Positions 15,649-56,321 of a DNA stretch of 64,000 bases are shown here, in pieces. Source of the stretch: an uncultured Candidatus Saccharibacteria bacterium (GTDB lineage: Bacteria; Patescibacteriota; Minisyncoccia; Phycocordibacterales; DATDWN01). The DNA lies in NCBI GenBank assembly GCA_964576615.1, contig CAZNUU010000001.1, forward strand, positions 164,226 to 228,225, written 5' to 3'. The notes under the pieces were generated by a model. That model was not told where the DNA came from and searched no databases. It worked only from the letters and a program-made list of their open reading frames with translations. Every line of letters begins with the position of its first letter. The first letter of the stretch is position 1. The position numbers and the translations under genes are program-made.

Positions 15649-15665
15649 TGTCGAACTAAGTATAA

Positions 15666-15960: not shown

Positions 15961-16035
15961 ATCCCAATCCCTCGCGCTCTCTCTTTCTATACAATCATCC
16001 TTTACGAAAAAAATGTCAAGACAATAAAGTTGTGG

Positions 16036-16320: not shown

Positions 16321-16365
16321 CAGTCCAGGAGCAATGGTAGCACAGTAGAAAATTAAGTCAATCTT

Positions 16366-20227: not shown

Positions 20228-20485
20228 TTACGTTGTGACTGCCATGTCGCGAGAGGCCGGCCGCAGGCACTTTTCCGCTTCATACGCAAGGACGAAGTAG
20301 CTGAGATCGCCCAGCCTCACCTTCACCATCTCGCGATGTTTCCTGATGCCTTCCACCTGCATCCGCTGGATCTCCCCGTCGGTTACGACCGAGGTCTTGG
20401 CTGGGAGAGACCCCAGCTTTCGAAGTCCGCTCCCCGTGATTTCGCTGAAGTAGTTCAGTCTCCGGCTGATCTGCATTTGTTGCAT
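20228..20485 (-). CDS. small hypothetical protein in a GC-rich islet (start probably at MQQMQISRR).
   Basis: GC-rich ORF; the listed 112-aa ORF extends into a low-GC N-terminal artefact. Confidence 0.3.
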   Translation of the reverse strand: MQQMQISRRLNYFSEITGSGLRKLGSLPAKTSVVTDGEIQRMQVEGIRKHREMVKVRLGDLSYFVLAYEAEKCLRPASRDMAVTT

Positions 20486-20560
20486 ATGCCCTCCAGATAT
20501 TACCTTACATCCTGGCTTGGAGACTGTCAAAACAAGTTTTATTATTGTTAGAATAATAGT

Positions 20561-24000: not shown

Positions 24001-24291
24001 CTACTGGCGGCCAACTTTCAAAAGTTCGACACCGCAGATCGGACAGAACGGCCAGGAAAACTCAACCGCGACGAGATGTTCGTCAATTTCCTTTTCGGTT
24101 TCCCCTTCCGCCAGGTTGTGCCAGGTCGGACACCACCTCTTGCGTGCTTGCTCCAGAGTCGCATACCCTTCTGCATTTAGAGCCAGGATACTGAATCCCC
24201 CATTGCTCTTACCGCAATGCATACAGAAGGGACACCAATTCTCGAGCAAGTGTTCACAATGAGGACAGGTCGGAGACCTCATAGCCCTCAT
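24001..24291 (-). CDS. small zinc-ribbon protein (multiple CxxC) in a GC-rich islet.
   Basis: From MRAMRSPTCPHCEHLLENWCPFCMHCG...WPFCPICG; GC-rich. Confidence 0.35.
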   Translation of the reverse strand: MRAMRSPTCPHCEHLLENWCPFCMHCGKSNGGFSILALNAEGYATLEQARKRWCPTWHNLAEGETEKEIDEHLVAVEFSWPFCPICGVELLKVGRQ

Positions 24292-24395
24292 TGCTCCCTC
24301 GAGCTGTTTTTTGGTCAGTCTCAAATAAACCTCCGGTCTCAGATTAGCATGAAAAAATAATAGCAGAAAGTCCCGGCAGACCTTCTGCTCGGGAC

Positions 24396-24671
24396 CTAAT
24401 GAGTGGTATCGAGAACGACCTTGATTGGAGGCTGTGTGACGACGCCATCCTTGATGTACTTCACACATTCCTGCGGAAGTTGCCCTCCTTGAAGGCACGG
24501 GTTGAGAAACTTCCTCAACTCATCAGGGTAGACGAGCCCATCAGGCTTGCCGAGTGCCTGATAGGTGACATCAGAGTAGTGCTTGGGTGTGAGTCCCATC
24601 GCAACCTGAAAAACGAGGAGAAACGCAATGCCAATCACGAAACCAACAACCGCCGAAGCCATTCTGTTCAC
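24396..24671 (-). CDS. small membrane-anchored hypothetical protein in the same GC-rich islet.
   Basis: N-terminal TM (VVGFVIGIAFLLVFQVAMG) and a C-terminal Cys pair; an overlapping plus-strand ORF is the alternative reading. Confidence 0.3.
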   Translation of the reverse strand: MNRMASAVVGFVIGIAFLLVFQVAMGLTPKHYSDVTYQALGKPDGLVYPDELRKFLNPCLQGGQLPQECVKYIKDGVVTQPPIKVVLDTTH

Positions 24672-27322: not shown

Positions 27323-27862
27323 ATGCCAGAAAACTTGCAGGACCCGACCCCTCCCAAAAAAGAGCGTGGCAACGGAGCGAACGTCATCGCTGTAAATGAG
27401 GTCGGAGGTATTCTCCTCGTCAAACACAACTACGGAGGCGAGCAGTGGGGTCTTCCGGGCGGTGAAATTGAGCGAGGTGAGGCCCCGACTCACGCTGCTT
27501 GTGAAGAGACAGAGGAGGAATCGGGTCTGGTGATTGATCCTCACGATCTCAAACTCATCGGCTGGTTCATCCAGAGACCTAAGGGGGTCGTCTTCCTCTT
27601 CGAGACACGGAAGTACGCCGGGACCGTCATAACAGAACCGAACAACGAAGTCTCAGAGGCTCGCTTTATGAGCCTTAGAGAAATCGTTGACCTTGGCGAG
27701 AAAGTCGGTCTGGCCTATCGAAGAATGATTCTGCGGTATATCCGCTGCATCGAGAGGATCGACCCGATCCCCTACGAAGGACGGCTGGCAGATCCGGTCG
27801 AGTATCCGAAGGATCTTGTCTCGGGCGAGGGAAAGTTCGCCGACATTGTTCACCGAGTCTGA
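27323..27862 (+). CDS. Nudix hydrolase (GC-rich islet) with a non-canonical Nudix box.
   Basis: GGEIERGEAPTHAACEETEEESGL fits GX5EX7REUXEEXGU except that R-E is replaced by E-E. Confidence 0.55.
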   Translation: MPENLQDPTPPKKERGNGANVIAVNEVGGILLVKHNYGGEQWGLPGGEIERGEAPTHAACEETEEESGLVIDPHDLKLIGWFIQRPKGVVFLFETRKYAGTVITEPNNEVSEARFMSLREIVDLGEKVGLAYRRMILRYIRCIERIDPIPYEGRLADPVEYPKDLVSGEGKFADIVHRV

Positions 27863-28788: not shown

Positions 28789-29316
28789 CTACTTACGTAC
28801 AACCAAGCTGACAACAACCCCGAGGGGTTTGCGCTCTTTCCTCCTACGCCTCAACTCGTAATACATTCTCCGTGCTCGATCCGGGTTATGCTCTGGCAGC
28901 CCTCTTACTACCGCCGAGAGCACACTAACCTTGGTCCCAGCCCGGATGATTCTTTTGTATTCCGGGTCGAGGAAATAACCCATTTCCTCGATTGTTTCCT
29001 GAACCCGCCTTAGAGCAGTCGATGACTTTGCAAATGATTTGTCTTTTGCAATTGGCAACCAACCTGCCTGGGTAAACAACCCAATGACAGCTCGCTCTTG
29101 AGAGCGGTTCGTCCCCTTCCAGATTGCATTCAGGATGGAGAGCAAGAAATCCTCGGTGAGTGCGACCATGGTCTGTTCTCGCCGAGCCTCCCAGTTCTTG
29201 AGCCGCTTTTCTAAAGCTACACTGTCTCTCTCCTTTTGTTTTCTTGATTGACCCATTGAGCCCTCTCTAAAGCTGAGTTTGCGAGGAGAAACTATCCGTC
29301 GTATAGTCTTACACAA
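28789..29316 (-). CDS. hypothetical basic protein, moderately GC-enriched, upstream of tRNA-Leu(CAA).
   Basis: 175-aa ORF, Arg/Lys-rich; no motif recognised. Confidence 0.3.
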   Translation of the reverse strand: MCKTIRRIVSPRKLSFREGSMGQSRKQKERDSVALEKRLKNWEARREQTMVALTEDFLLSILNAIWKGTNRSQERAVIGLFTQAGWLPIAKDKSFAKSSTALRRVQETIEEMGYFLDPEYKRIIRAGTKVSVLSAVVRGLPEHNPDRARRMYYELRRRRKERKPLGVVVSLVVRK

Positions 29317-39091: not shown

Positions 39092-39430
39092 GGCGTAGTA
39101 GCCAAGTAGCATGAGCATAGCGAACTAGTAAAAAGCCAAGGGTCTGCATGCAGACAAATCTGAAATAATTTCAGATAATGAAGAACGAAGTAAATAGTGG
39201 CGTAGTAGCCAAGATAGCAAGGCAAAGGTCTGCAAAACCTTTATGCGGCGGCGCACATCCGCCCTACGCCTCCAGGCGAGGAAGCAAGCAAATTTATTTG
39301 CTTGCTTGCGGATGTGCGAGCCGCAGATATATTTTTTCAGTAGAAAAAATAATCGAGGCGGGGTCGCGAAATTTTGCAAGCGACGGCGAGCAAAATATTT
39401 GTGACCGCATCCGTCTTCGCATTTATATTT
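39092..39430 (+). repeat. GC-rich highly structured region with a tandem imperfect repeat, upstream of tRNA-Leu(TAA).
   Basis: GGCGTAGTAGCCAAGTAGCA...GGTCTGCA repeated at 39094 and 39198; palindrome GTCTGCATGCAGAC; hairpin ATCTGAAAT-aa-TTTCAGAT; 11-bp stem CGCACATCCGC...GCGGATGTGCG enclosing hairpin GCAAGCAAA-ttta-TTTGCTTGC. Confidence 0.4.
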
Positions 39431-39431
39431 T

Positions 39432-39513
39432 GCCCGGATGGCGGAACTGGTATACGCGCACGACTTAAAATCGTGTCTCGCAAGGGATGTGGGTTCGATT
39501 CCCACTCCGGGCA
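39432..39513 (+). tRNA. tRNA-Leu (anticodon TAA).
   Basis: GCCCGGA...anticodon stem CACGA/TCGTG with loop CT-TAA-AA, a long variable arm, T-arm GGGTTCGATTCCC, and acceptor TCCGGGC-A. Confidence 0.8.
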
Positions 39514-39536
39514 CAAATTTCCATTTATTTTAATAA

Positions 39537-39566
39537 TTGACAGATACATATAAACCGTGCTATAAT
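39537..39566 (+). promoter_or_regulatory. consensus sigma-70-type promoter with a strong Shine-Dalgarno, driving the GC-rich ORF at 39586.
   Basis: TTGACA (39537-42), 18-bp spacer, TATAAT (39561-66), then AAGGAGG (39572-78) 7 nt before the ATG. Confidence 0.6.
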
Positions 39567-39585
39567 TGAAAAAGGAGGCAGACTC

Positions 39586-39915
39586 ATGGAACTTGTTCCG
39601 TACCACCTGGCAGCCATCGTGGCTGGTCAGATCGCGCAGCAGGACTTCAGGGTAACCCTCAGCGAGTACATCTCGCGTAAAGGAAGCCCTTGGGTCATCA
39701 CCGTCGGGGAATCCTACTGGCAACGGCACCTGGTGATCGAAACGGTCATCCATGGTGGCAACGATGCCACGTTGGCGATTCTCGCCAACGAACAGTCAGT
39801 CTTGCGTACCCTCGACATCGACACGACGAAGGTCGACCGCAGGGTCTCGCTCAAGGAGCTCCTCGCCGGACGCTACAGTGGCATAAGGCAGGCTCTCGAT
39901 GCCGTTCATGCGTAG
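39586..39915 (+). CDS. hypothetical protein (109 aa), strongly GC-rich cargo gene.
   Basis: ORF with a perfect promoter and RBS, followed by two hairpins (39929-39955 and 39964-39995); no recognisable motif. Confidence 0.45.
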   Translation: MELVPYHLAAIVAGQIAQQDFRVTLSEYISRKGSPWVITVGESYWQRHLVIETVIHGGNDATLAILANEQSVLRTLDIDTTKVDRRVSLKELLAGRYSGIRQALDAVHA

Positions 39916-40000
39916 CGATGTTCGAAACGAGTGGGAGAGATGTATTCTCCCACTCGGCACTCTCGATAATTCAGAAGAGTTATCGGGATTTTTTGTATTT

Positions 40001-40039
40001 AAAAATCAATAGCCGAGAAACGTGAACCGTTTCTCGGCT
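40001..40039 (-). terminator. Rho-independent terminator for the minus-strand gene 40054..40671.
   Basis: 12-bp stem AGCCGAGAAACG/CGTTTCTCGGCT followed on the minus strand by a T-run. Confidence 0.65.
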
Positions 40040-40053
40040 AGAAGCTCAACCAC

Positions 40054-40671
40054 TTACGGGACCTCCCTACGAACGTGATAAGCCCCCCTGAGAAGAGAAG
40101 CTGAGATCACAAATAACGTGAGCGTAGAGAAGCACCAGAAAATGATCTTTGGTAGATCATCAGCTGGTGGGAGTCCAGTCCGCAGTAAGAGCCCTGAAAT
40201 GAACAGTGCTCCGACTGTAAACGCCGCCGCCATACCTTCGAATCGCAGAATCTCCTTACGCTGATAAGACCTTTGAGGCCTCGACAGCATTCCAATGGCG
40301 AGAGCCACCAGCAAGACTGTTGAGATTGTGATCACAACATCAGGAACTTCAAAACCAAACCAGCTTTTGAAAATCCTGATGATGAAGGGCTGCGGAACTC
40401 CCCCAATCCAGTTATCCTTGACGAATTCGGGATTGGAGAGACCTCGCAGGTAGGCCGAGAGCAGAGTGAGAGGACAGATGAAGTTGAACGGAATTTGCGC
40501 AAGACCGACTGTGATCAGGACAGCTCGATTGTACTTGAAGATCCTCGAGTAGCGAGAAGACAACGCAAAAAATGGACCAACTGCCATACCCACCATGATT
40601 ACAAGCACGACGAGGTGGAAAAAATCCACCAACATAGCCAGCCTTTCATAGAAGTTCATAACTTCCTCCAT
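40054..40671 (-). CDS. hypothetical polytopic membrane protein, GC-enriched, directly 3' of tRNA-Lys.
   Basis: 205 aa with about 5 TM helices. Confidence 0.4.
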   Translation of the reverse strand: MEEVMNFYERLAMLVDFFHLVVLVIMVGMAVGPFFALSSRYSRIFKYNRAVLITVGLAQIPFNFICPLTLLSAYLRGLSNPEFVKDNWIGGVPQPFIIRIFKSWFGFEVPDVVITISTVLLVALAIGMLSRPQRSYQRKEILRFEGMAAAFTVGALFISGLLLRTGLPPADDLPKIIFWCFSTLTLFVISASLLRGAYHVRREVP

Positions 40672-40723
40672 TGCGGATAATACGATTTAAATCGCTAATG
40701 TCAAATTCAGAAAAAACTTATTA

Positions 40724-40800
40724 GTGGTGCGCCCACCAGGGATCGAACCTGGGACATTCTCCTTAAGAGGGAGCTACTCTACCAGCTGAGTTATGGGCGC
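40724..40800 (-). tRNA. tRNA-Lys (anticodon CTT) with encoded CCA.
   Basis: The reverse complement gives GCGCCCATAACTCAGCTGGTAGAGTAGCTCC-CTCTTAA-GGAGAATGTCCCAGGTTCGATCCCTGGTGGGCGCACCA. Confidence 0.85.
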
Positions 40801-40839
40801 AGTATTTTTATTATACTCACTTTTATTCAGACTTCAATT

Positions 40840-40871
40840 TCTATATCATACGATATATCGTATGATATAGA
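40840..40871. promoter_or_regulatory. 32-bp perfect palindrome (operator-like), copy 1.
   Basis: TCTATATCATACGATATATCGTATGATATAGA, 2 nt beyond the regulator stop and about 40 nt upstream of the tRNA-Lys 5' end. Confidence 0.6.
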
Positions 40872-40872
40872 T

Positions 40873-41259
40873 TTAAAATTGCAAAAAATGTTTAAATCTA
40901 TCTCTGCCAACTCTAGGAGGTATTATTTTTTTGATTAATGTTTGGAAACTTTTTTGAAGCTTTATTTCTTTTATAATATTGTCATACTTCCCTATCTCAT
41001 AGCTATCTGAGATTCTGGCTACGGTCGATGGACTAACTTGTAATATATTTTCAATTGCATAAGAAGTTTCACCCTCATCAATCATAACTATCATAGCCAG
41101 TCTTTTAGCAAGCATTATTTTCTCTGTTTTGGTCAATACCTCATCAAAAAATACTTTTGTTTTACCAGACCGAACAAGATTTTGAATATTTTTATACAGT
41201 TGCTTGTTTATTTCTATAAATTTATTCCTTTCTAATAATTTTTTTGAAATATGTGGCAT
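40873..41259 (-). CDS. TrpR-family YerC/YecD-like HTH DNA-binding protein.
   Basis: ...VFFDEVLTKTEKIMLAKRLAMIVMIDEGETSYAIENILQVSPSTVARISD... matches the YerC pattern (FFDDLLTPNE...LAKRL...GxTYxEIxxxTGxSxxTVxR). Confidence 0.5.
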   Translation of the reverse strand: MPHISKKLLERNKFIEINKQLYKNIQNLVRSGKTKVFFDEVLTKTEKIMLAKRLAMIVMIDEGETSYAIENILQVSPSTVARISDSYEIGKYDNIIKEIKLQKSFQTLIKKIIPPRVGRDRFKHFLQF

Positions 41260-41264
41260 TTATA

Positions 41265-41288
41265 TATCATACGATATATCGTATGATA
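41265..41288. promoter_or_regulatory. 24-bp perfect palindrome (operator-like), copy 2, identical core to copy 1.
   Basis: TATCATACGATATATCGTATGATA, 5 nt upstream of the regulator ATG and about 50 nt upstream of tRNA-Leu(TAG). Confidence 0.6.
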
Positions 41289-41339
41289 AGAACAACTAGT
41301 TATATTGGGATGTTTGTGATATATTTCCTCTATTAATTT

Positions 41340-41420
41340 GGGCGAGTGGTGAAATGGCAGACACGCATGCCTTAGGAGCATGTCCCGCAAGGGGTGGAGG
41401 TTCAAGTCCTCTCTCGCCCA
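41340..41420 (+). tRNA. tRNA-Leu (anticodon TAG).
   Basis: GGGCGAG...anticodon stem CATGC/GCATG with loop CT-TAG-GA, long variable arm TCCCGCAAGGGGTG, T-arm GGAGGTTCAAGTCCTCT; followed by terminator AAACTGGC-gttca-GCCAGTTTTTG (41425-41449). Confidence 0.8.
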
Positions 41421-41617
41421 CAAGAAACTGGCGTTCAGCCAGTTTTTGTGCGGACTAGAGAGGACTTGAAGACCGATTGAGATATTTTTGGAGTTACGAG
41501 CAAAAATATCCAATTGGGATACTGATCGTGTAACGATCAAGTCCGCTTGCTAAAAATAGTTCCTGAACTATTTGACTTTTTTTAAAAAATCGATAGATTG
41601 GCCGAAGAGAGGATGAC

Positions 41618-41851
41618 ATGGCAAACAGAAAACCACGTCGCCGAGCTTCAGAAAGACTCATTCGGATAACCACAGATCTGGAGAAGGAAGACTACCAAGA
41701 TCTAATGGATCTAGGACGCAAGCGGCTTGCCTCGAGCCAGGCTGTCCTGGTGCGCAAAGCAATTCGACTCCTTGCGGCACTGGAAAAGGGGGAGATCTTC
41801 CTCACAACACGAAATGGAGAAAAAATACCCAAGTCAGTGATCTTCTCCTAA
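41618..41851 (+). CDS. small ribbon-helix-helix (CopG/Arc/ParD-like) protein, GC-enriched.
   Basis: Beta-strand ERLIRITTDL followed by two helices (EDYQDLMDLGRK, SSQAVLVRKAIRLLAA); terminator at 41871-41900. Confidence 0.4.
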   Translation: MANRKPRRRASERLIRITTDLEKEDYQDLMDLGRKRLASSQAVLVRKAIRLLAALEKGEIFLTTRNGEKIPKSVIFS

Positions 41852-41884
41852 TACGAGGTTCTGAACCAGAAACCGGCACAACGC

Positions 41885-42367
41885 GTGTCGGTTTTCATTT
41901 ATGTTACAATTTATAAAGCAATGCATTCTCACTACAGAAAATTGACAGTGATGGTTATCCTCTCTTTTGTTGCGATGTATTTTCTCATGTTTGCAATGGT
42001 GAATACTTTCGATAATGTTTTCATTGGCATAAACCAGTTCTATATGGCAGGCCTCATGACTTCGGCAATGGTTTTAATTGAACTTGGGATAATGGGTTCA
42101 ATGTATGGAAACAAAAGAGTAAATACAATTATTTGTATCGTAAGTCTTGTAGCGTTAGTTGGTTTCTGGTCAGCGATAAGAAGTCAGCACGCAATCAGAG
42201 ATAGAGAATTTTTGAAATCGATGATTCCCCACCACGCGGGCGCTATACTTATGTGTAGTGAGGCAAAGTTAAGTGACCCAGATGTAATAAAACTTTGTCA
42301 AAATATTATAAAAGGTCAGCAAAGTGAGATTGATTTTATGAAATTAAAACTTAATCAAACAAAATAA
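41885..42367 (+). CDS. DUF305-family membrane protein.
   Basis: MIPHHAGAILMC matches the DUF305 HH motif; three TM helices. Confidence 0.5.
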   Translation: MSVFIYVTIYKAMHSHYRKLTVMVILSFVAMYFLMFAMVNTFDNVFIGINQFYMAGLMTSAMVLIELGIMGSMYGNKRVNTIICIVSLVALVGFWSAIRSQHAIRDREFLKSMIPHHAGAILMCSEAKLSDPDVIKLCQNIIKGQQSEIDFMKLKLNQTK

Positions 42368-42368
42368 A

Positions 42369-42569
42369 ATGACATACCCAGAATTTGTAGAGGAACTTAT
42401 AAATCGTTTCGGAGAGCAAGGAGTTTTAATGGCCTTGCGCGCAGAAGTTGGATTCCTACGACGTTTTATGGAAAAGCAAAATTTTCCGGACTTTCAAAAG
42501 GATCAAGAAAAAATGATTGAGGATTTCCTAGATCGCCACCCAAAAGGCCATCAAATGAGACATCATTAA
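42369..42569 (+). CDS. small hypothetical protein coupled to the DUF305 gene.
   Basis: 66 aa; 1-nt gap after the upstream stop. Confidence 0.3.
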   Translation: MTYPEFVEELINRFGEQGVLMALRAEVGFLRRFMEKQNFPDFQKDQEKMIEDFLDRHPKGHQMRHH

Positions 42570-42715
42570 TTCTGCCTAATTCTAACTTTATTATTAGCCA
42601 TATTTTTCCCTTTTCCATACTTGACTTTTAGATATTTTGTGATACAATGGCCCTAGGGTTGGGTCGGAATTTTCGACCTTTAACATATATGCAAGTTACT
42701 TGAGAGGAGAGAGAT

Positions 42716-43936
42716 ATGAATGGTGTGAGACCACAGCGACTTCCGGAGAGCCACGCGAAAGCGGCGCTCATCCTGATGGTCGCACTCGTGGTGAATCTGG
42801 CGCTTTTCGGGACAGCGGTCCTCATGATCCTCTTCGGAAGAAGTACGGGATCGTGGTGGGATACGCTTTCACAGGTCAACTTGGAAACGGGAGGGGTCTT
42901 GATCCTTCTCATCCAAGTCTTTCACGCTTTAAACAGCGTGAAGAACGTGAACCTCAACCAGCAGGCAATTCTGCTGCTGTTTGGGGCATTCGTGAAGTAC
43001 GTCGAGCCGGGGCTCATTTATGTGCCCTGGGGTTTCTGCAGGTTGCTTCGAGCGACCACCGAGACGATCGAGAAAGACGTCCCGGCAGACTCACGGTTCA
43101 TAGACCACAGCGATGTTACCGATCAGACCACCGGTGGAACGGGAGTAATCCGAAAGGGCTACTTCCCTCCCATTCGAGTGACCTTTGCACCAGCAAAGGC
43201 TGCGGAAACAATCGAGGTGGGCGGTGAGAGGATCACGATTCCGGCGGACGATCCCTACGGCAAGAGAAATACTGCCGAAGTGGAGTTCTCCTACGGTTTC
43301 GAGATCTACGACTACGCGCGAGTGGTAAAGCGGTTCGGCACTGACGATCCAATCGGCAAGGCCAAGAACCAGCTGGACGACGTCGGCATCGGAGTCGTAA
43401 ACGACGAGTTGTCGCGAATGACAACCGCCAGAGCGATGATGAGTCAATCAGCGGTAGCGAACAAGATCCGGGATACTCAGTCTACCGAATCGGCAGACTG
43501 GGGAGTTCAGATCCTCTTCGTTCGCTTGAAGCCGTTTGGGTTCAGTCACAAACTGAACACTGCGGTCAGACAAGCAGCGGAGTCGTTTGCGCTGAAACAG
43601 GCAGTCGTCGTCGCCTCAGAAGGCGAACGTGAGAGACTCACCAACGTCGGCACGGGCACAGCAGAAGCAGAACGTCTGCTTTTGGAGGCACGGGCCAAGG
43701 GTGAAGCGGCGCTCGCCAAGGTCGCAGAGACACCTGGTGGCAAGTACGCCATGGCGGTCCGAGAAATCGGGCAGGCTGTGACGGCTGCCAGGGCAGTCGT
43801 CGTTCCGGGAGATAATCTCCTCGGAGCGGTGGCAAGTGCTGCGGCACTGGTCAAACAAGTCGGTGACGTAACGGAAACCGGCACAACCGGCTCAGCAAGC
43901 GGAAGCAACACGCGACCGCCTGCATCGAGACCATGA
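42716..43936 (+). CDS. SPFH/band-7 (stomatin/flotillin-like) membrane protein, strongly GC-rich.
   Basis: N-terminal TM, then AILLLFGAFVKYVEPGLIYVPWGFCRLL...(SPFH core) and a flotillin-like Ala/Glu coiled coil ERLLLEARAKGEAALAKVAE. Confidence 0.6.
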   Translation: MNGVRPQRLPESHAKAALILMVALVVNLALFGTAVLMILFGRSTGSWWDTLSQVNLETGGVLILLIQVFHALNSVKNVNLNQQAILLLFGAFVKYVEPGLIYVPWGFCRLLRATTETIEKDVPADSRFIDHSDVTDQTTGGTGVIRKGYFPPIRVTFAPAKAAETIEVGGERITIPADDPYGKRNTAEVEFSYGFEIYDYARVVKRFGTDDPIGKAKNQLDDVGIGVVNDELSRMTTARAMMSQSAVANKIRDTQSTESADWGVQILFVRLKPFGFSHKLNTAVRQAAESFALKQAVVVASEGERERLTNVGTGTAEAERLLLEARAKGEAALAKVAETPGGKYAMAVREIGQAVTAARAVVVPGDNLLGAVASAAALVKQVGDVTETGTTGSASGSNTRPPASRP

Positions 43937-43946
43937 GGTGTGAGAG

Positions 43947-44714
43947 ATGATCATCGCAGCGGTCGTCGTGGTGCTCGCAGCCATTTACATTTGGCTGCGA
44001 GCACAACAAGATCGAGACAGCAGAGGTATTGCGCGGGAGAGGCAGGAAGCCCCTCCCGACCAGGCAGATACGCCCCCGCAACCCGAAAGGGATGCGGATG
44101 GCGACTTCCCTTGGTACAAGTGGTGGAAGAGGCCCGGGTGGTGGAAAGAGAACATCTTTACCATTCCACTCGGAATCCTCCTCGGCCACATCATCGTCGC
44201 TGTCGCGACTCCAGATTTGTACTTCGAGTACATCTGGAGTTCGTGGCAGTTCTGGGCGCTGCAAGCGGTGATCGTTATCGCCGCCTGGATGATTCCGCAA
44301 GGAAATGTCCAGTACCATCCGAAGCTTGGCAAGATCATTGTCGTTACCGCTCTGCTAGCTGTTGTATATGTCTGGGGAAACAAAGCCCTGGATGATGCAC
44401 AGAAAAGCGCAGCGGCATCGAACAATGCTCAAGCCAGCTCATCGACCCAGAACACCCCGCCACCGAACAACGGAGGCAGGATCGTGATCACCGCCCCGCC
44501 GGTCTCGCAAGAGCCGACGGGTCGCATCGCACTACCACCGAGAGCCGTGCTCTCGGCGAACAAGCCGTTCACAATTTTTCAACTCGACGAGAGGGGAAAA
44601 GAGGCCTCCTACGACGGAGGTCCGGGCATGGAGGGGGTTCATCTCCCGCCATCTCCCTACGCCAGGTTCCGGTCAAAATCAGAAGAACCGGTCCTGATAA
44701 CCTTCATCCAGTAA
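43947..44714 (+). CDS. polytopic membrane protein, possible NfeD-like SPFH partner, GC-rich.
   Basis: 4 TM helices plus a C-terminal soluble beta-rich segment; followed by terminator CCCCCCCGCA-tacg-TGCGGGGGGG (44742-44765). Confidence 0.35.
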   Translation: MIIAAVVVVLAAIYIWLRAQQDRDSRGIARERQEAPPDQADTPPQPERDADGDFPWYKWWKRPGWWKENIFTIPLGILLGHIIVAVATPDLYFEYIWSSWQFWALQAVIVIAAWMIPQGNVQYHPKLGKIIVVTALLAVVYVWGNKALDDAQKSAAASNNAQASSSTQNTPPPNNGGRIVITAPPVSQEPTGRIALPPRAVLSANKPFTIFQLDERGKEASYDGGPGMEGVHLPPSPYARFRSKSEEPVLITFIQ

Positions 44715-44780
44715 CTGTACGCAGTTTGTACATTCATATAGCCCCCCCGCATACGTGCGGGGGGGATTCGTTTATACGAG

Positions 44781-45065
44781 TTAGAGATTTAGAAACGATC
44801 TAGCCGTAGGAACATCACTTGGCGCAATGCCAAAAGTATCGAGGGTGAATTTTATAAGACCGTAGACAGAAAACATTATAACTAGACCCACAATACTCCA
44901 GAGTATTGCATTACGAGCCTCGTCCCTATCCGTAGAGTCAGCACCGAGCCTGAGAAATCGAACAACACTGTAGAAAAAATATGCAAAGGCTAGGGCAAAG
45001 CCGAGCGTAATTATGGGATTGAGAATAACACTATTTACATTATAGAGAAAAGTCGTGATAGTCAC
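44781..45065 (-). CDS. pilin-like small membrane protein, paralog A (no signal peptide; possibly truncated).
   Basis: Shares the two-helix core LxFALAFAYFFYSV...AILWSIVGLVIMFSVYGL with five upstream paralogs. Confidence 0.4.
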   Translation of the reverse strand: MTITTFLYNVNSVILNPIITLGFALAFAYFFYSVVRFLRLGADSTDRDEARNAILWSIVGLVIMFSVYGLIKFTLDTFGIAPSDVPTARSFLNL

Positions 45066-45073
45066 GAGAAACT

Positions 45074-45421
45074 TTATGAGTTAGGAAGCTTAGGTAGGTT
45101 GATGTTTGTATCTGTAAGACCAAACGTATTAACCAAGAAGTTGATTAGACCGTAGACAGCAATCATCACAGCCAAAGCTACGACACCCCAGATCATTATA
45201 CTTCTTCCCTCTGCAGCAGCCTTTGGATCGCTACCAACATTTCGGATGTATTTAATAAGACCCCAGAAGAAGTAGATAATAGCTAGACCGAAAAGAATCG
45301 GCAGTACTCGATCTAATACCTCTGTCTTAAACTGACTAAGTAAAGTACCCAGACCAGTTAGGCTTGCGGCAAAAGCCAAGGCAGGGCCAAAAACTAACAC
45401 TGAATAAGCAATTTTTTTCAT
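45074..45421 (-). CDS. VirB2/TrbC-like pilin-family small membrane protein, paralog B.
   Basis: Sec signal peptide (…ALAFA), then hydrophobic helix 1 (PILFGLAIIYFFWGLIKYI), polar loop (NVGSDPKAAAEGRS) and helix 2 (IMIWGVVALAVMIAVYGL). Confidence 0.45.
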   Translation of the reverse strand: MKKIAYSVLVFGPALAFAASLTGLGTLLSQFKTEVLDRVLPILFGLAIIYFFWGLIKYIRNVGSDPKAAAEGRSIMIWGVVALAVMIAVYGLINFLVNTFGLTDTNINLPKLPNS

Positions 45422-45505
45422 ATCTTAATGTAAATAACCTGTAATATCTTAATTATATAGTAAATAGTAAGGAAAACAAGCTAGTTGTGGATAAAAAGAA
45501 TAGCG

Positions 45506-45859
45506 TTATGGCCCAAATATACCGCTAAAATCACCGCCTGGTCTTATACCTAGAGCATCACCTATTGCAAACAATATTCCGTATATAGCAACGAATACAA
45601 ATAGAGCGACAATCCCCCAGATAATCTTATTTTTACCGTCCTCTCTGGTCTTATCGTTACCGGCATCATTTAAGATAAACTGGGCCAAGCCCCAGAAGAA
45701 GTAGACTATCGAGAGGCCAAAAAGAATCGGAACTATGCTCGATAGAATTTGCATTATTTCTTGGAGCAACCCCTTTATTCCATTTAATTGGGCAAAAGCT
45801 AAATTAGGTAACAAGACTAATAATGTATATTTTATTTTTTTCATATTTTTATGGACCAC
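45506..45859 (-). CDS. VirB2/TrbC-like pilin-family small membrane protein, paralog C.
   Basis: Signal peptide …NLAFA; VPILFGLSIVYFFWGLAQFIL ... IIWGIVALFVFVAIYGIL. Confidence 0.45.
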   Translation of the reverse strand: MVHKNMKKIKYTLLVLLPNLAFAQLNGIKGLLQEIMQILSSIVPILFGLSIVYFFWGLAQFILNDAGNDKTREDGKNKIIWGIVALFVFVAIYGILFAIGDALGIRPGGDFSGIFGP

Positions 45860-46202
45860 CTTTTAAATATGGTATGGCTGAGGCGGGACCAAAGCCAAGG
45901 TCACTTGCAATAAAACTGGTAATTGTTCTGAAAGTGAGAAGAATGAATAATGCCAAGATACCCCAAAGCATGTAGCTTTTACCCTTTTCTATATTTTCAT
46001 GACTATCCGAGTGGAGAATAAATTTGGAGAGCCCCCAAAAGAAAACAATGAAGGCAAGCGAAAAAAGAACAGGAACTAGAAGACCAATGGCACTAACAAT
46101 ATATTTTATTGTAGCCCCCAGAGTAGTGGAAAATAAGGAAAAAGCAAAAACTGGAATTGGACACAGAATCAAGAAAACAATTATAGATCTTATTTTTTTC
46201 AT
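45849..46202 (-). CDS. VirB2/TrbC-like pilin-family small membrane protein, paralog D.
   Basis: Signal peptide …VFAFS; VPVLFSLAFIVFFWGLSKFIL ... YMLWGILALFILLTF. Confidence 0.45.
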   Translation of the reverse strand: MKKIRSIIVFLILCPIPVFAFSLFSTTLGATIKYIVSAIGLLVPVLFSLAFIVFFWGLSKFILHSDSHENIEKGKSYMLWGILALFILLTFRTITSFIASDLGFGPASAIPYLKGGP

Positions 46203-46203
46203 G

Positions 46204-46581
46204 CTATGGACAAGGGAAGGAACCCGTTGCTACCACACTACAGACTGTACTCTGGATAACGAGTGAGATGCCAGCTGCCCCAAGAAGAATACCCGCACCA
46301 ACTAGTGCCCATAGTAGCCTCTGATGTGCTTCTTCTATTTTTTTTGGATTGCCTTGCGCAGTTAGATAAGTAAAACCTGCCCAGATAATCCAAAGTACGA
46401 CGACGATAGCGGCAACCGGCATTACAATCTTGTTCAAAATAACAGAAAGGAGCTGGGGTAAGGTATTTGCGCCACTTAGCGGGTTCGGAATAGAGGTGCC
46501 AGATCCTATTGTTTGAGCATATAAAACACCCGGTAAAAGATAGGCAAGATATTTAGTTTTTGTGAGAAGTTTCATACTCAA
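46204..46581 (-). CDS. VirB2/TrbC-like pilin-family small membrane protein, paralog E (C-terminal Cys pair).
   Basis: Signal peptide …VLYAQ; IVMPVAAIVVVLWIIWAGFTYL ... LLWALVGAGILLGAAG; ends CSVVATGSFPCP. Confidence 0.4.
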   Translation of the reverse strand: MSMKLLTKTKYLAYLLPGVLYAQTIGSGTSIPNPLSGANTLPQLLSVILNKIVMPVAAIVVVLWIIWAGFTYLTAQGNPKKIEEAHQRLLWALVGAGILLGAAGISLVIQSTVCSVVATGSFPCP

Positions 46582-46583
46582 TA

Positions 46584-47036
46584 TTATATTAAATTTGGAA
46601 TACTGCTGTTAAGTAAAGTTGAGGTGATTAAGTGGACAATGAGCCAAGCACCAAGGATAACCGCTATACCAATTGCACACTTAAGAAGTGTCTGGTTTGC
46701 CTCCGATCTTTTGCCGGGATTGGGACCTGAGATCATATACTTCCAGCCCGCAAAGGCAATCACAATCACAGTAAACAAAAGTGCAGTGACTGTTCCAAAG
46801 TTAACAATATTTATTACTTCCGGAATGAGATCTTTGTAAAAATCACAATCACCTGCTCTGCCTGTACTACCCCCCGTGCATTCCCAAACGATGCCAGTCT
46901 TACCACCAGAGCCTGCAGCCTGAGCATGAATTGTAAAAGGCAGAACAAAAAGAAATAATGTCGGAATAATTAGGAGAAAGAATGAAAAAATTTTTCTATT
47001 TAAAAACATACTACTGTATTTGGCTATTAAGTTCAT
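46584..47036 (-). CDS. VirB2/TrbC-like pilin-family small membrane protein, paralog F (Cys pair after the signal peptide).
   Basis: Signal peptide …TIHAQA; VWECTGGSTGRAGDCDF; TVTALLFTVIVIAFAGWKYM ... LLKCAIGIAVILGAWL. Confidence 0.4.
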   Translation of the reverse strand: MNLIAKYSSMFLNRKIFSFFLLIIPTLFLFVLPFTIHAQAAGSGGKTGIVWECTGGSTGRAGDCDFYKDLIPEVINIVNFGTVTALLFTVIVIAFAGWKYMISGPNPGKRSEANQTLLKCAIGIAVILGAWLIVHLITSTLLNSSIPNLI

Positions 47037-48923: not shown

Positions 48924-49352
48924 TTACCTATCGCAACTGACGATGACACCGGCACTTCTCTTTTCGCCGACGAAGGCCTGACAGGTGATAGAGACCCCGT
49001 CTACCTTTATCGTAAGAAGTATCATGTTGACAACTCCGCCGGGGCGACGCTTGCCTTTGACCCTCTGCCACCTTTCGTTGATGGGAACATCCAGAGCTTT
49101 GTCGAAGTCGTGGTACGAGACCTCGACGGCGTCGAGACCACGGTGGACATGGTCATCCAGAATCTCGAATCCGCCCTGACCATCGTTTCGAACGATGACC
49201 AATTCACGTGAGAATTCGATCGCAACCATGTTACCGGCAGCGATTGAACCCATCGAATCCGACGTGTACACGAAGCTTTTGGTCGAGTCCGTAGCAGGGC
49301 TCTCGATGCAGGCACTCATGGCCAGAACCAGAGATACAAGGATCAATCTCAT
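48924..49352 (-). CDS. putative lipoprotein, strongly GC-rich islet.
   Basis: Signal peptide with lipobox-like LAMSAC; a beta-rich body. Confidence 0.35.
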   Translation of the reverse strand: MRLILVSLVLAMSACIESPATDSTKSFVYTSDSMGSIAAGNMVAIEFSRELVIVRNDGQGGFEILDDHVHRGLDAVEVSYHDFDKALDVPINERWQRVKGKRRPGGVVNMILLTIKVDGVSITCQAFVGEKRSAGVIVSCDR

Positions 49353-53966: not shown

Positions 53967-54293
53967 TTACTTTTTCGAAAACTTCACGTGTCGGAACTCC
54001 TCACTCCGGAATCGGCCGATGTCCGATTCGGAGATCCCCTCTTGTTTCATTGCCTCTTCGAGGGCGGACCCCTTGGCAAGGCTTCGGCTGAAGAAGCCTG
54101 AGAGCTCGTCGAGGGAAACTTCCTCGCCGGCGAGGACCTTCTTCGCCGTTCTTGCCTGGGTCCGCCGATCTGCCTCTTGAGCCTTCTTCAGCCCCGGAAC
54201 GGCGATCGCTGCGATGATTCCGACAAACAGGATGACGATGAGAAACTCGATCAGGGTGAATCCTTTGATCGAACGCGCACGAGAAACTGTCAT
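53967..54293 (-). CDS. type IV pilin/pseudopilin-like protein (prepilin N-terminal methylation motif), GC-rich.
   Basis: MTVSRARSIKG|FTLIEFLIVILFVGIIAAIAVP is a class III signal peptide; GGAGG RBS before this Met; terminator hairpin AGGTTCGAC...GTCGAACCT downstream. Confidence 0.5.
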   Translation of the reverse strand: MTVSRARSIKGFTLIEFLIVILFVGIIAAIAVPGLKKAQEADRRTQARTAKKVLAGEEVSLDELSGFFSRSLAKGSALEEAMKQEGISESDIGRFRSEEFRHVKFSKK

Positions 54294-54404
54294 CTCAACC
54301 TCCTCCACCTTTATACCACCAGTATTTAATATGTCAAGCTATCCAAACTTCCTCATTTTTGTATACTTAAAGCCGTATTTTATTAGCCACTATATACGCT
54401 AAAT

Positions 54405-55605: not shown

Positions 55606-55863
55606 TTATGCCTCCAGCCTACGCAGGAGACTGCCATGCACCGAAAGAGCAACTCGCCCTTCGGGCGTCCAGATCGTGACATGATAACTGCCTGCCCCCA
55701 TCTCCATCAGATGATCGAGTGCAGACTCTGCTGTCACGAAGTGACCGTCGATTCTCGTTGTCGCTGACTGAGCCACCATTCGAAAAGGAGCTGGTGACAT
55801 CGGCAAGTGACAATCTGGATCAGGTGTCATCTCTCCTGGTCTACGCGGTCCAATTGGTGCCAT
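55606..55863 (-). CDS. hypothetical protein in a GC-rich islet (uncertain).
   Basis: 85-aa ORF in a GC-rich block; overlapping alternative frames exist. Confidence 0.2.
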   Translation of the reverse strand: MAPIGPRRPGEMTPDPDCHLPMSPAPFRMVAQSATTRIDGHFVTAESALDHLMEMGAGSYHVTIWTPEGRVALSVHGSLLRRLEA

Positions 55864-55931
55864 AATCCCCCCAAATTGAATCCTAACATAAGCATTTTGA
55901 GCGCACGACTTTCATCGTGCGCTCTCGTGTC

Positions 55932-56321
55932 TTACCCGACTACATGAAGATTGTCGTGTTCGTCATCTTGCGGAGGAGCTGACCTTCCACCTCGAAGTGC
56001 ATCACCCTCAGCACGGACTCTGGCAACTCTGGCTTCAACCCTCCTCTGCTGCCGTCGGATGTGAGCAACGACGCTCGCCACCTCACCACTCAGCAGATGT
56101 GGGCTGTATGTGTAGATCGTGCTTTGCTGGGCTTGCCAGAGCTCCGCGATGGCATCGTGGTTCTCTGGGATCTTCGTCGCCAAGATCAATTTGGCCAGGA
56201 TGTTCATGGCATTCGCAGTATTTGCCTGCGGTATGACATTAGTGATTGAGAGATGGAACGGCTTGGTACCGTCATCATCCATCACATCTTTTCCTTGACC
56301 GAGAAAAACTCCGTCACTCAT
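55932..56321 (-). CDS. hypothetical protein in a GC-rich islet (uncertain).
   Basis: 129-aa ORF; an overlapping plus-frame ORF is the alternative reading. Confidence 0.25.
   Translation of the reverse strand: MSDGVFLGQGKDVMDDDGTKPFHLSITNVIPQANTANAMNILAKLILATKIPENHDAIAELWQAQQSTIYTYSPHLLSGEVASVVAHIRRQQRRVEARVARVRAEGDALRGGRSAPPQDDEHDNLHVVG

What the first reader, a model, noticed from the sequence alone, without database searches (positions are those of the whole stretch)
39092..44765. tRNA-dense integration hotspot (Leu-TAA, Lys-CTT, Leu-TAG) loaded with foreign-composition cargo
Within 5.7 kb there are three tRNA genes. Each has a GC-rich gene at its 3' flank: the 39586 ORF after Leu-TAA, the 40054 membrane protein after Lys-CTT, and the RHH gene after Leu-TAG. 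Further along sit DUF305 with a coupled small gene, and a GC-rich SPFH gene with a possible NfeD-like partner. No integrase is present, so these look like fixed remnants of site-specific integration at tRNA 3' ends.
Basis: partly seen in the sequence, partly recalled or inferred. Interest (0 to 1): 0.65.

Follow-up and report, generated by a model that had tools for sequence, protein, structure and literature searches.

The report
Conserved tRNA cluster with gene-turnover slots
A cluster of four tRNA genes in a small-genome Parcubacteria bacterium is an old, conserved landmark whose gaps hold different small foreign-looking genes in each relative, but its largest GC-rich block occupies the same conserved position in several relatives rather than being tRNA-targeted cargo, so this is an ordinary variable region, not a clear integration scar.

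Summary
The sequence facts are mostly right. There are four tRNA genes, not three: Cys-GCA was missed. A GC-rich gene does follow Leu-TAA, Lys-CTT and Leu-TAG. DUF305 and SPFH are real, and no integrase is present. The RHH and NfeD labels could not be verified.

Relatives (Candidatus Zambryskibacteria and allies) share the backbone infB-rbfA-tRNA-Cys-tRNA-Leu(TAA)...tRNA-Lys-tRNA-Leu(TAG)...SPFH-partner-T4SS pilins-SBP-methyltransferase-gyrA.

- **Variable slots.** The gaps beside the tRNAs hold different genes in every relative. One relative has a large serine integrase abutting tRNA-Leu(TAA), and another has an HNH endonuclease between tRNA-Cys and tRNA-Leu. The 109-aa gene family recurs next to tRNA 3' ends elsewhere.
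- **No integration scars here.** The window has no tRNA-end direct repeat and no room for an integrase pseudogene.
- **The SPFH pair is not hotspot cargo.** This largest GC-rich block sits at the same position, and is also GC-rich, in at least four lineages, at only about 25% identity.
- **GC-richness is genome-wide.** 18 of 75 genes in the window are GC-rich, and the excess beside tRNAs is not significant (p=0.12).

Verdict: a known kind of variable region. The one real oddity is compositionally distinct gene families that stay GC-rich wherever they occur.

The parts
39092..39155 (+). Degenerate 5' half of tRNA-Cys (acceptor and D arm, then anticodon stem, with a 23-nt insertion). It lies where relatives have the intact tRNA-Cys, 1-10 nt after the rbfA stop.
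   Evidence: Exact 15-nt repeat GGCGTAGTAGCCAAG at 39092 and 39199. L001's tRNA-Cys start aligns here in blastn. Positions in relatives.
   Evidence: ARAGORN; Rfam tRNA 51.9 bits.
39275..39431 (+). 157-nt highly structured spacer between tRNA-Cys and tRNA-Leu. It is absent from L002 and L003, which have 3-18 nt here.
   Evidence: MFE -68.6 kcal/mol against -40.9 +/- 4.0 for shuffles, z=-6.9. No Rfam hit. Single copy. 100% identical in L001.
39432..39514 (+). tRNA-Leu(TAA).
39537..39566 (+). Consensus sigma-70-like promoter (TTGACA-18-TATAAT with an extended TG) for the 109-aa gene.
   Evidence: 12 of 12 match.
39586..39915 (+). 109-aa protein of an uncharacterised but real family. GC .59, GC3 .75. 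It has its own SD and terminator (39961-39988).
   Evidence: 45 representative clusters at E<=1e-3, best 54% identity. AF2 pLDDT 93. No PDB or viral fold neighbour. No Pfam, PHROG, NCBIfam or PADLOC hit.
40054..40671 (-). Multi-pass membrane protein of 205 aa (annotated elsewhere as 201 aa). Orphan. GC .49, GC3 .56. Own promoter at 40704-40677 and terminator at 40040-40010.
   Evidence: Only itself found among 5.8 billion proteins. Weak sub-threshold DUF2784 match. Promoter and terminator.
40725..40800 (-). tRNA-Lys(CTT), inverted relative to L003 and L081/82.
40844..40869 (.). Perfect 26-nt palindrome, copy 1, between the TrpR-like gene's stop and the tRNA-Lys promoter.
   Evidence: (I1, I5, D4).
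40873..41259 (-). TrpR/YerC-YecD-like HTH protein, very AT-rich (GC .28). It is inserted between tRNA-Lys and tRNA-Leu(TAG), which are adjacent in relatives.
   Evidence: PF01371, 36.7 bits against a cut-off of 27. TIGR02531 sub-threshold. No homologue in the relatives' loci.
41263..41288 (.). Perfect 26-nt palindrome, copy 2, in the divergent promoter region between the TrpR-like gene and tRNA-Leu(TAG).
41340..41421 (+). tRNA-Leu(TAG).
41401..41470 (+). Long hairpin. The tRNA-Leu(TAG) T-arm and acceptor 3' strand pairs with an inverted copy at 41444-41470, around a small terminator hairpin. The same design, with lineage-specific sequence, occurs in L003 and L084.
   Evidence: (I2, 81% complementary).
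41618..41851 (+). 77-aa basic protein, GC .50.
   Evidence: No profile hit. Low-confidence AF2 model. Promoter-like site at 41572-41599 and terminator at 41869-41895.
41885..42367 (+). Membrane protein with a C-terminal DUF305/CopM-like segment. Native-like AT-rich composition.
   Evidence: PF03713, 45.3 bits. NF049983 CopM, sub-threshold. GC3 .35.
42369..42569 (+). 66-aa gene translationally coupled to DUF305 (start 1 nt after the stop).
   Evidence: Annotated as a gene in the source record.
42716..43936 (+). SPFH/Band-7 membrane protein, GC .57, GC3 .65. Positionally conserved in relatives at about 25% identity.
43947..44714 (+). Membrane partner protein of SPFH, GC .57, GC3 .66. Conserved as the downstream neighbour in L003, L082/83, L084 and L085. 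Not NfeD.
44742..44765 (+). GC-rich intrinsic terminator that closes the SPFH operon.
44781..47036 (-). Array of six T4SS-pilin (TrbC/VirB2-like) paralogues, convergent on the SPFH pair. Conserved context.
   Evidence: PF18895. tblastn to L003 and L081/82. Pfam in the relatives.

Best explanation
The region is an ancestral Parcubacteria tRNA gene cluster (Cys-GCA, Leu-TAA, Lys-CTT, Leu-TAG) inside a conserved gene order: infB-rbfA-[tRNAs]-SPFH-partner-T4SS pilin array-SBP-methyltransferase-gyrA.

- **The slots.** The short gaps next to the tRNAs act as permissive slots where accessory DNA is gained and lost. Each lineage carries different genes there. Most are single genes with their own promoter, Shine-Dalgarno sequence and terminator.
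- **How they probably got there (inferred).** Some came from site-specific elements that later decayed, since a serine integrase and an HNH endonuclease sit at the same tRNAs in relatives. Others came by recombination that uses the near-identical tRNA genes as anchors.
- **What is left.** In this genome only cargo remains. No recombinase and no att repeats survive.
- **The SPFH pair.** The SPFH-plus-partner operon is not cargo of the tRNA hotspot. It is a fixed member of the locus next to the pilin genes.
- **The GC-richness.** It belongs to a genome-wide class of about one quarter of the genes, with a codon dialect unlike the native one. It is not a signature of tRNA-targeted integration.
For: Shown:
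- The backbone is conserved. tRNA order and flanking genes match in L001-L004 and in L081/82 and L084. Core proteins are 59-85% identical to L003.
- Slot contents differ in every relative and have no homologues in the other loci.
- L002 has a serine integrase abutting tRNA-Leu(TAA) plus a Cro/C1 HTH gene.
- L004 has an HNH endonuclease between tRNA-Cys and tRNA-Leu.
- Scars in the window: a 5' half of tRNA-Cys at the ancestral position, an inverted tRNA-Lys, and a palindrome-flanked TrpR-like insertion.
- The 109-aa family lies next to a tRNA 3' end in the window, in L091 and probably in L090.
- The SPFH pair sits at the same position in four lineages with GC3 .58-.77. L083 is a single contig that bridges AT-rich, GC-rich and AT-rich DNA.
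- 18 of 75 genes are GC-rich and scattered across the window. Their codon usage is anticorrelated with native genes (r=-0.28).
- Each unit has its own SD, promoter and terminator.

From the literature: Patescibacteria MAGs carry hundreds of islands and individually transferred genes, up to 13% of genome length, mostly exchanged among Patescibacteria (PMC12455944).
Against: - No att repeat or recombinase exists in the window, so the integrative origin of the window's own slot genes is inferred, not shown.
- The excess of GC-rich genes next to tRNAs is not significant (p=0.12).
- If the SPFH pair is vertically inherited, its GC3 should have decayed toward the host value over a divergence that left only 25% identity. 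Calling it 'ancestral' therefore leaves its composition unexplained.
- Only a handful of relatives could be examined. Metagenome scans for more found nothing.
Confidence: 0.6

Rival explanations
1. Each GC-rich gene, including the SPFH pair, is the fixed remnant of a separate site-specific integration at the 3' end of the adjacent tRNA, and the integrases and att sites have since been lost.
For: - All three tRNAs have a co-oriented GC-rich gene on their 3' side.
- A serine integrase sits at the same tRNA-Leu(TAA) in L002.
- The 109-aa family recurs 3' of tRNAs.
- The SPFH pair always lies downstream of tRNA-Leu(TAG).
Against: - No tRNA-end direct repeats. No integrase and no space for a pseudogene.
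- The same two-gene SPFH module, never with an integrase, occupies the same place in four lineages at about 25% identity.
- In the window and in L081, AT-rich genes separate the SPFH pair from the tRNA.
- GC-rich genes are as common away from tRNAs.
Confidence: 0.15
2. No foreign origin. The GC-rich genes are native, and their composition is generated or maintained in place. One route is GC-biased gene conversion at recombination-prone, fast-diversifying membrane or surface loci. Another is selection on these particular families.
For: - The SPFH pair is positionally conserved, hyper-divergent (about 25% identity against 59-69% for its neighbours) and GC3-rich in several lineages.
- The 109-aa family is GC3-rich (.67-.86) in all six genomes sampled, whatever the host GC.
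- Many of the GC-rich genes encode membrane or secreted proteins.
- Their regulatory flanks are AT-rich like the host.
Against: - GC1 and GC2 are raised as well as GC3, as expected for genes that evolved in a GC-richer genome.
- Most GC-rich genes have no counterpart in the orthologous slot of relatives. One slot, methyltransferase|gyrA, is empty in L081.
- The closest SPFH homologue, on L085, is not GC-rich (GC3 .41).
- No known bacterial mechanism raises GC3 by 0.3-0.4 at single genes.
Confidence: 0.15
3. Assembly artefact. Near-identical tRNA genes shared by co-occurring organisms let the assembler splice segments of a GC-richer organism into this contig, so the tRNA-bounded GC-rich pieces are chimeric.
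For: - The independent Logan contig L086 equals window 39451-40797 and breaks inside both flanking tRNAs.
- The 319-nt tRNA-Cys-spacer-tRNA-Leu block is 99.7% identical to L001, while the flanks are 67-74% identical. This could be a wrong graph path through shared tRNAs.
- L001 comes from a co-assembly, according to its record title.
Against: - Most GC-rich genes, including the SPFH pair, are not bounded by tRNAs on both sides.
- L083 and L082 independently bridge AT-rich, GC-rich and AT-rich DNA in a relative.
- Intergenic DNA inside the tRNA-bounded segment is AT-rich like the host.
- Inserts of this size at 18 places in 64 kb are implausible as chimeras.
Confidence: 0.06

Closest known systems
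tRNA-linked genomic islands and integrative elements (tyrosine or serine recombinase, attL/attR from the tRNA 3' end)
   Same: Atypical composition next to tRNA genes. Contents vary between relatives. One relative (L002) has a serine integrase abutting the same tRNA.
   Different: The window has no integrase and no tRNA-derived direct repeats. The units are single genes rather than multi-gene islands. The biggest 'cargo' is conserved in position across lineages. The foreign-looking DNA is GC-richer than the host, the opposite of the usual AT-rich islands.
Individually transferred genes and genomic islands reported in Patescibacteria MAGs (PMC12455944)
   Same: A streamlined CPR genome with a substantial share of compositionally deviant accessory genes: here 16.5% of coding bases, against up to 13% of genome length in the paper.
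   Different: That study did not describe tRNA association. It also did not describe families that stay GC-rich in every host, as far as the text search showed.
SPFH-NfeD operons (stomatin/HflK-type scaffold with an NfeD partner)
   Same: A membrane-anchored SPFH protein sits in a tight two-gene operon with a second membrane protein.
   Different: The partner lacks the NfeD domain in all five orthologues and lies downstream rather than upstream. The pair is linked to a T4SS-pilin array.
Positionally conserved replacement loci of atypical GC, such as enterobacterial O-antigen clusters between galF and gnd (from general knowledge)
   Same: Fixed chromosomal position, conserved flanks, extremely divergent alleles, composition unlike the rest of the genome, and membrane or surface function.
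   Different: Here there are two genes, GC-rich rather than AT-rich. Exchange by flank recombination and diversifying selection have not been shown.
Homing endonuclease or selfish-element insertions in tRNA gene arrays
   Same: L004 carries an HNH endonuclease gene between the same two tRNAs. The window has an extra 157-nt structured insert and a tRNA-Cys half-copy there.
   Different: No endonuclease is present in the window. The 157-nt element matches no known RNA or repeat family.

Membership tests
tRNA-targeted integrative island (site-specific) | Integrase (tyrosine or serine recombinase) gene at one end, next to the tRNA | tested here: not met
   No recombinase domain in any ORF of 39.0-44.8 kb. 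No unassigned gap above about 200 bp. Present only in relative L002.
tRNA-targeted integrative island (site-specific) | Direct repeat of the tRNA 3' segment at the distal border (attR) | tested here: not met
   Searches with 22-25 nt of each tRNA 3' end, allowing up to 3 mismatches, found only the tRNAs themselves in 64 kb. The only tRNA-derived repeats are a 5' half of tRNA-Cys and an inverted copy after tRNA-Leu(TAG) that is also present in relatives.
tRNA-targeted integrative island (site-specific) | Presence/absence polymorphism: empty site in relatives | tested here: inconclusive
   tRNA-Lys and tRNA-Leu(TAG) are adjacent in L003 and L081/82, so that site is empty. The other slots are filled with different genes in every relative, and none is cleanly empty. 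The SPFH pair is present in all of them.
tRNA-targeted integrative island (site-specific) | Composition unlike the host | tested here: met
   GC3 .49-.75 against about .33 for native genes. Not specific to tRNA flanks (Fisher p=0.12).
SPFH / Band 7 superfamily (42716-43936) | SPFH domain detectable by profile | tested here: met
   PF01145, 33.8 bits against a cut-off of 23.6. A family profile hits stomatin, HflK, prohibitin and QmcA in the PDB at E 2e-12 to 1e-3.
SPFH / Band 7 superfamily (42716-43936) | N-terminal membrane anchor and C-terminal Ala/Glu-rich helical (oligomerisation) region | tested here: inconclusive
   A hydrophobic N-terminal stretch and an A/E-rich C-terminal segment are visible in the sequence and alignment. 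No topology or coiled-coil predictor was run.
NfeD partner of SPFH (43947-44714) | NfeD domain (PF01957, C-terminal OB-fold) | tested here: not met
   No PF01957 hit at E<=0.05 in any of the five orthologous partners.
NfeD partner of SPFH (43947-44714) | Gene immediately upstream of, and co-transcribed with, the SPFH gene | tested here: not met
   The partner is downstream of SPFH in all loci.
Ribbon-helix-helix regulator (41618-41851) | RHH domain by profile, or a beta-alpha-alpha fold | tested here: inconclusive
   No Pfam, NCBIfam, PHROG or PDB hit. The single-sequence AF2 model has pLDDT 70 and pTM .31, with no N-terminal strand. A basic N-terminus and the helix pattern are compatible with RHH.
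DUF305 / CopM (41885-42367) | Full DUF305 four-helix domain | tested here: inconclusive
   PF03713 is above its cut-off (45.3 bits against 27), but only profile positions 98-148 of 151 are matched. CopM NF049983 scores 46.9 bits against a cut-off of 90.
TrpR / YerC-YecD family (40873-41259) | Trp_repressor-type HTH domain | tested here: met
   PF01371, 36.7 bits against a cut-off of 27, covering profile positions 4-76 of 88. TIGR02531 is sub-threshold.

The most novel reading that the evidence does not exclude
Some Patescibacteria gene families stay strongly GC3-rich (.6-.86) in every host genome, including AT-rich ones. Two were seen here: the SPFH-partner pair next to the pilin array, and the 109-aa tRNA-flanking family. 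The SPFH pair does so at one conserved chromosomal position while diverging to about 25% identity. This would point to one of two things. Either a dedicated, compositionally distinct mobile gene pool repeatedly replaces alleles at fixed 'docking' sites (tRNA flanks, the pilin locus). Or a locus-specific GC-biased recombination process acts on fast-diversifying envelope genes. Either way, ordinary one-off horizontal transfer followed by amelioration would not be the explanation.
Probability: 0.2. Interest if true: 0.6.

Novelty: new member of a known kind. Interest (0 to 1): 0.33.

Why it matters
- **Caution for genome scans.** In these genomes, atypical GC next to a tRNA is weak evidence for site-specific integration. 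About a quarter of the genes share that composition, and the largest block is syntenic in relatives.
- **CPR biology.** The locus documents a conserved tRNA landmark whose flanks are used again and again by selfish or accessory DNA in different lineages: a serine integrase, an HNH endonuclease and single-gene units.
- **Possible follow-up.** If the persistent GC-richness of particular families is real, it would give a handle on how ultra-small episymbiotic bacteria exchange and diversify envelope genes.

Tried and rejected
- **More SPFH-pair loci.** The five-sequence alignment was too divergent for the metagenome scan. The two-sequence alignment found no relatives. The word-indexed profile search added only generic HflK/stomatin hits.
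- **The 157-nt spacer elsewhere.** Exact 27-mer scans of IMG/VR and the JGI metagenomes found nothing. There is no second copy in the window or in 90 loci, and no Rfam family.
- **The membrane protein at 40054.** No homologue at all.
- **The RHH label.** The single-sequence AF2 model was too poor to use.
- **Consensus fold of the hairpin after tRNA-Leu(TAG).** MAFFT could not align the arms across indels, so no covariation statistic was obtained.
- **Donor inference from codon usage.** The GC-rich genes resemble any GC-rich genome (r=.31-.66), so the test does not discriminate.
- **Shared border motifs.** Inspection of the borders of 17 GC-rich units found no common repeat, only individual SDs and terminators.
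- **A single large island from 39.5 to 44.8 kb.** Rejected, because it would contain two conserved tRNAs, native-composition genes and the ancestral SPFH pair.

Full report
**What is in the sequence**

ARAGORN finds four tRNA genes in 2.2 kb, not three. Rfam agrees.

| tRNA | Coordinates | Strand |
|---|---|---|
| Cys(GCA) | 39199-39274 | + |
| Leu(TAA) | 39432-39514 | + |
| Lys(CTT) | 40725-40800 | - |
| Leu(TAG) | 41340-41421 | + |

The window averages 42% GC. Native genes have GC3 of about .33. The genes of the finding are listed below.

| Gene | Product | GC / GC3 |
|---|---|---|
| 39586-39915 (+) | 109 aa, uncharacterised family | .59 / .75 |
| 40054-40671 (-) | 205-aa multi-pass membrane protein | .49 / .56 |
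| 40873-41259 (-) | TrpR/YerC-like HTH | .28 / .22 |
| 41618-41851 (+) | 77 aa | .50 / .49 |
| 41885-42367 (+) | C-terminal DUF305/CopM-like segment | .35 / .35 |
| 42369-42569 (+) | 66 aa, coupled to the previous gene | .39 / .33 |
| 42716-43936 (+) | SPFH/Band 7 | .57 / .65 |
| 43947-44714 (+) | 255-aa membrane partner | .57 / .66 |

A convergent array of six T4SS-pilin paralogues follows at 44781-47036.

Each of those genes has its own promoter-like site, Shine-Dalgarno sequence and terminator. The promoter-like site before the 109-aa gene is a perfect TTGACA-18-TATAAT.

No ORF in the region has a recombinase domain. The largest unassigned gap is about 200 bp, so an integrase pseudogene has nowhere to sit.

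The 'NfeD-like' label fails. No orthologue of the partner matches PF01957, and the gene lies downstream of SPFH. The 'RHH' label could not be verified.

**Whose genome this is, and what relatives look like**

The IF-2 gene just upstream retrieved relatives from GTDB genomes.

| Locus | Source | IF-2 identity |
|---|---|---|
| L001 | uncultured CPR MAG | 78% |
| L002, L003 | Candidatus Zambryskibacteria | 61-62% |
| L004 | Candidatus Adlerbacteria | 50% |

SPFH homologues added L081/L082/L083, L084 and L085.

All of these share the backbone. infB and rbfA are followed at once by tRNA-Cys and tRNA-Leu(TAA). Further on come tRNA-Lys(CTT) and tRNA-Leu(TAG), then SPFH, its partner, the pilin array, a substrate-binding protein, a methyltransferase and gyrA. 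The tRNA cluster is therefore ancestral and not a chance aggregation.

**The slots are variable**

The 3' flank of tRNA-Leu(TAA) holds different content in each genome:
- In the window: the 109-aa gene and the membrane orphan.
- In L001: an unrelated 179-aa secreted protein.
- In L003: about 900 bp of partly GC-rich DNA.
- In L002: a large serine recombinase (PHROG integrase, E=7.5e-74) whose reading frame runs antisense into the tRNA, followed by a Cro/C1 HTH gene.

Other slots also vary:
- L004 has an AT-rich HNH endonuclease gene between tRNA-Cys and tRNA-Leu, in a 57% GC genome.
- tRNA-Lys and tRNA-Leu(TAG) are adjacent and co-oriented in L003 and L081/82. In the window tRNA-Lys is inverted, and the very AT-rich TrpR-like gene lies between them, bracketed by two perfect 26-nt palindromes.
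- After tRNA-Leu(TAG) the window has the 77-aa gene and DUF305 with its partner. L003 has an unrelated 98-aa GC-rich ORF, L081/82 have an AT-rich TIG-domain gene, and L084 has about 400 bp.

None of the window's slot genes has a homologue in any relative's locus. This supports 'hotspot of turnover'.

**What does not fit site-specific integration remnants**

- Searches with the last 22-25 nt of each tRNA, allowing 3 mismatches, find only the tRNAs themselves in 64 kb.
- The weak 72% match to tRNA-Leu at 44502-44533 lies inside the partner gene. It loses similarity toward the tRNA end, so I treat it as chance.
- The inverted copy of the tRNA-Leu(TAG) 3' end at 41444-41470 is not a scar of this genome. 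L003 and L084 have the same architecture with their own sequences.

The SPFH pair occupies the orthologous position in L003, L081/82/83 and L084. It is GC-rich there too, with GC3 .64-.77 against .26-.40 for neighbours in L003 and L081/82, and .58-.63 in L084. L083 is a single independent contig that bridges AT-rich, GC-rich and AT-rich DNA.

**GC-richness is a genome-wide class**

Gene-by-gene composition is bimodal. 18 of 75 genes (16.5% of coding bases) have GC of at least .49 and GC3 of .49-.75, and they are scattered through the window. They include a formyltransferase, a NUDIX hydrolase, a pilin-like protein and many hypotheticals.

- 5 of 12 tRNA-adjacent genes are GC-rich, against 13 of 63 others (one-sided Fisher p=0.12).
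- Only 3 of the 7 tRNA 3' flanks are GC-rich.
- Codon usage of the GC-rich set is anticorrelated with the native set (r=-0.28). It resembles any GC-rich genome, so no donor can be named.
- The methyltransferase|gyrA junction is a non-tRNA example. It is empty in L081 (35 bp). It holds a GC-rich lipoprotein ORF in the window (48924-49352), and a different GC-rich piece plus an IS200-like transposase in L003.

A published survey of 125 Patescibacteria MAGs reports hundreds of islands and individually transferred genes, up to 13% of genome length, mostly exchanged within the phylum (PMC12455944). The general phenomenon is therefore known.

**What remains odd**

First, the SPFH proteins are only about 25% identical between lineages whose neighbouring core proteins are 59-69% identical, and the partners about 23%. 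Yet the pair keeps both its position and its GC-rich composition.
- Vertical descent predicts that the composition would decay toward the host value.
- Repeated replacement from GC-rich donors needs a recurrent mechanism at one site.
- The closest homologue (P0002, 42-45% identity, on L085) is not GC-rich (GC3 .41).

Second, the 109-aa protein belongs to a real family.
- It has 45 representative clusters, with best identity 54%.
- The AF2 model is confident (pLDDT 93) and has no structural neighbour.
- Its members have GC3 .67-.86 in all six contexts examined, in hosts of 42-53% GC.
- In the window it lies directly 3' of tRNA-Leu(TAA). In L091 it lies directly 3' of a tRNA (51 bits, cut at the contig end; anticodon GTA by eye). 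In L090 a tRNA 3' end is visible by eye.
- L090 and L091 may be orthologous, so this counts as two independent cases in five. That is suggestive, not conclusive.

**Recombination scars at tRNA-Cys and tRNA-Leu**

- Window 39199-39517 (tRNA-Cys, a 157-nt spacer, tRNA-Leu) is 99.7% identical to L001. The flanking coding DNA is 67-74% identical.
- L002 and L003 have only 3-18 nt between these two tRNAs.
- The window also keeps a degenerate 5' half of tRNA-Cys exactly where relatives have the intact gene.
- The spacer folds far better than shuffles (z=-6.9). It matches no Rfam family and is single copy.

This fits recent exchange anchored in the tRNAs. A caveat applies. L001 comes from a co-assembly, and the independent Logan contig L086 breaks inside both tRNAs. 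A wrong assembly path through shared tRNAs could therefore produce the identity.

**Conclusion**

The finding is a conserved tRNA cluster whose flanks are gene-turnover slots. Relatives give good circumstantial evidence that selfish or integrative elements use these tRNAs. The window holds no direct evidence (att repeats or an integrase) that its own genes arrived that way.

The largest GC-rich block is a positionally conserved part of the locus. GC-richness is a genome-wide property of accessory genes.

The persistent GC-richness of particular families is the one lead worth following.

Noticed in passing
window 39275-39431 (and L001 5244-5400): A 157-nt spacer between tRNA-Cys and tRNA-Leu(TAA) folds into a very stable multi-branch structure (MFE -68.6 kcal/mol, z=-6.9). 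It has no Rfam match and is single copy. It is absent from L002 and L003 and 100% identical in L001, whose coding flanks are only 67-74% identical. It may be a new small RNA or mobile insert, or the identity may be an assembly-path artefact.
   Followed up: partly
window 39092-39155: A degenerate 5' half of tRNA-Cys (15 nt exact, then the anticodon stem after a 23-nt insertion). It sits where relatives have the intact tRNA-Cys, about 107 nt upstream of the functional copy. This is a scar of insertion or replacement within the tRNA.
   Followed up: partly
window 40844-40869 and 41263-41288, flanking 40873-41259: Two perfect 26-nt palindromes (within 31-nt direct repeats, 97% identical) bracket a very AT-rich TrpR/YerC-like gene. 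They fall in the presumptive promoter regions of tRNA-Lys and of tRNA-Leu(TAG) and the gene itself. They could be operators that tie tRNA transcription to this repressor, or the ends of a small mobile unit. No other copy exists in the window or in 90 loci.
   Followed up: partly
window 41401-41470; L003 about 13219-13318; L084 about 203-298: Just after tRNA-Leu(TAG), three lineages have a small terminator hairpin followed by an inverted copy of the tRNA's own T-arm and acceptor 3' strand. Each has lineage-specific, matching sequence, so the precursor could sequester the tRNA 3' half. L081 lacks it.
   Followed up: partly
window, e.g. 7274-7864, 10311-10703, 11690-12307, 17390-18019, 20228-20566, 24001-24498, 27323-27862, 28789-29316, 48924-49352, 53967-54308, 55606-56321: About a quarter of the genes are GC-rich (GC3 .5-.7 against .33). 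They are single-gene units with their own SD and GC-rich terminator, scattered between AT-rich core genes. They include a formyltransferase, a NUDIX hydrolase and a pilin-like protein.
   Followed up: partly
window 48924-49352; L081 7327-7363; L003 20250-21324: The methyltransferase|gyrA junction is empty in L081. In the window it holds a GC-rich lipoprotein-like ORF. In L003 it holds a different GC-rich piece plus an IS200-like transposase. This is a turnover slot that is not next to a tRNA.
   Followed up: partly
L002 9375-11408: A large serine recombinase (PHROG integrase) has a reading frame that runs antisense through tRNA-Leu(TAA) and tRNA-Cys. A Cro/C1 HTH gene follows. This is probably an integrated element, but its far end lies off the contig.
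   Followed up: partly
L004 12206-12721: An AT-rich HNH endonuclease gene lies between tRNA-Cys and tRNA-Leu(TAA) in a 57% GC Adlerbacteria genome.
   Followed up: yes
L087 7370-14111: A run of twelve small genes (64-230 aa), mostly unannotated and widely spaced, with very uneven GC3 (.32-.81). It includes a homologue of the 109-aa gene and looks like an accessory-gene array in another CPR-like genome.
   Followed up: no
window 15642-16381: A GC-rich stretch whose longest ORF has flat codon-position GC (.55/.52/.51), so it may be non-coding. No Rfam match at E<=0.1.
   Followed up: partly
window 44781-47036: Six tandem T4SS-pilin (TrbC/VirB2-like) paralogues are conserved as an array in L003, L081/82 and L084. 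They are always convergent on the SPFH pair, which suggests a functional link between the SPFH scaffold and pilin handling.
   Followed up: no
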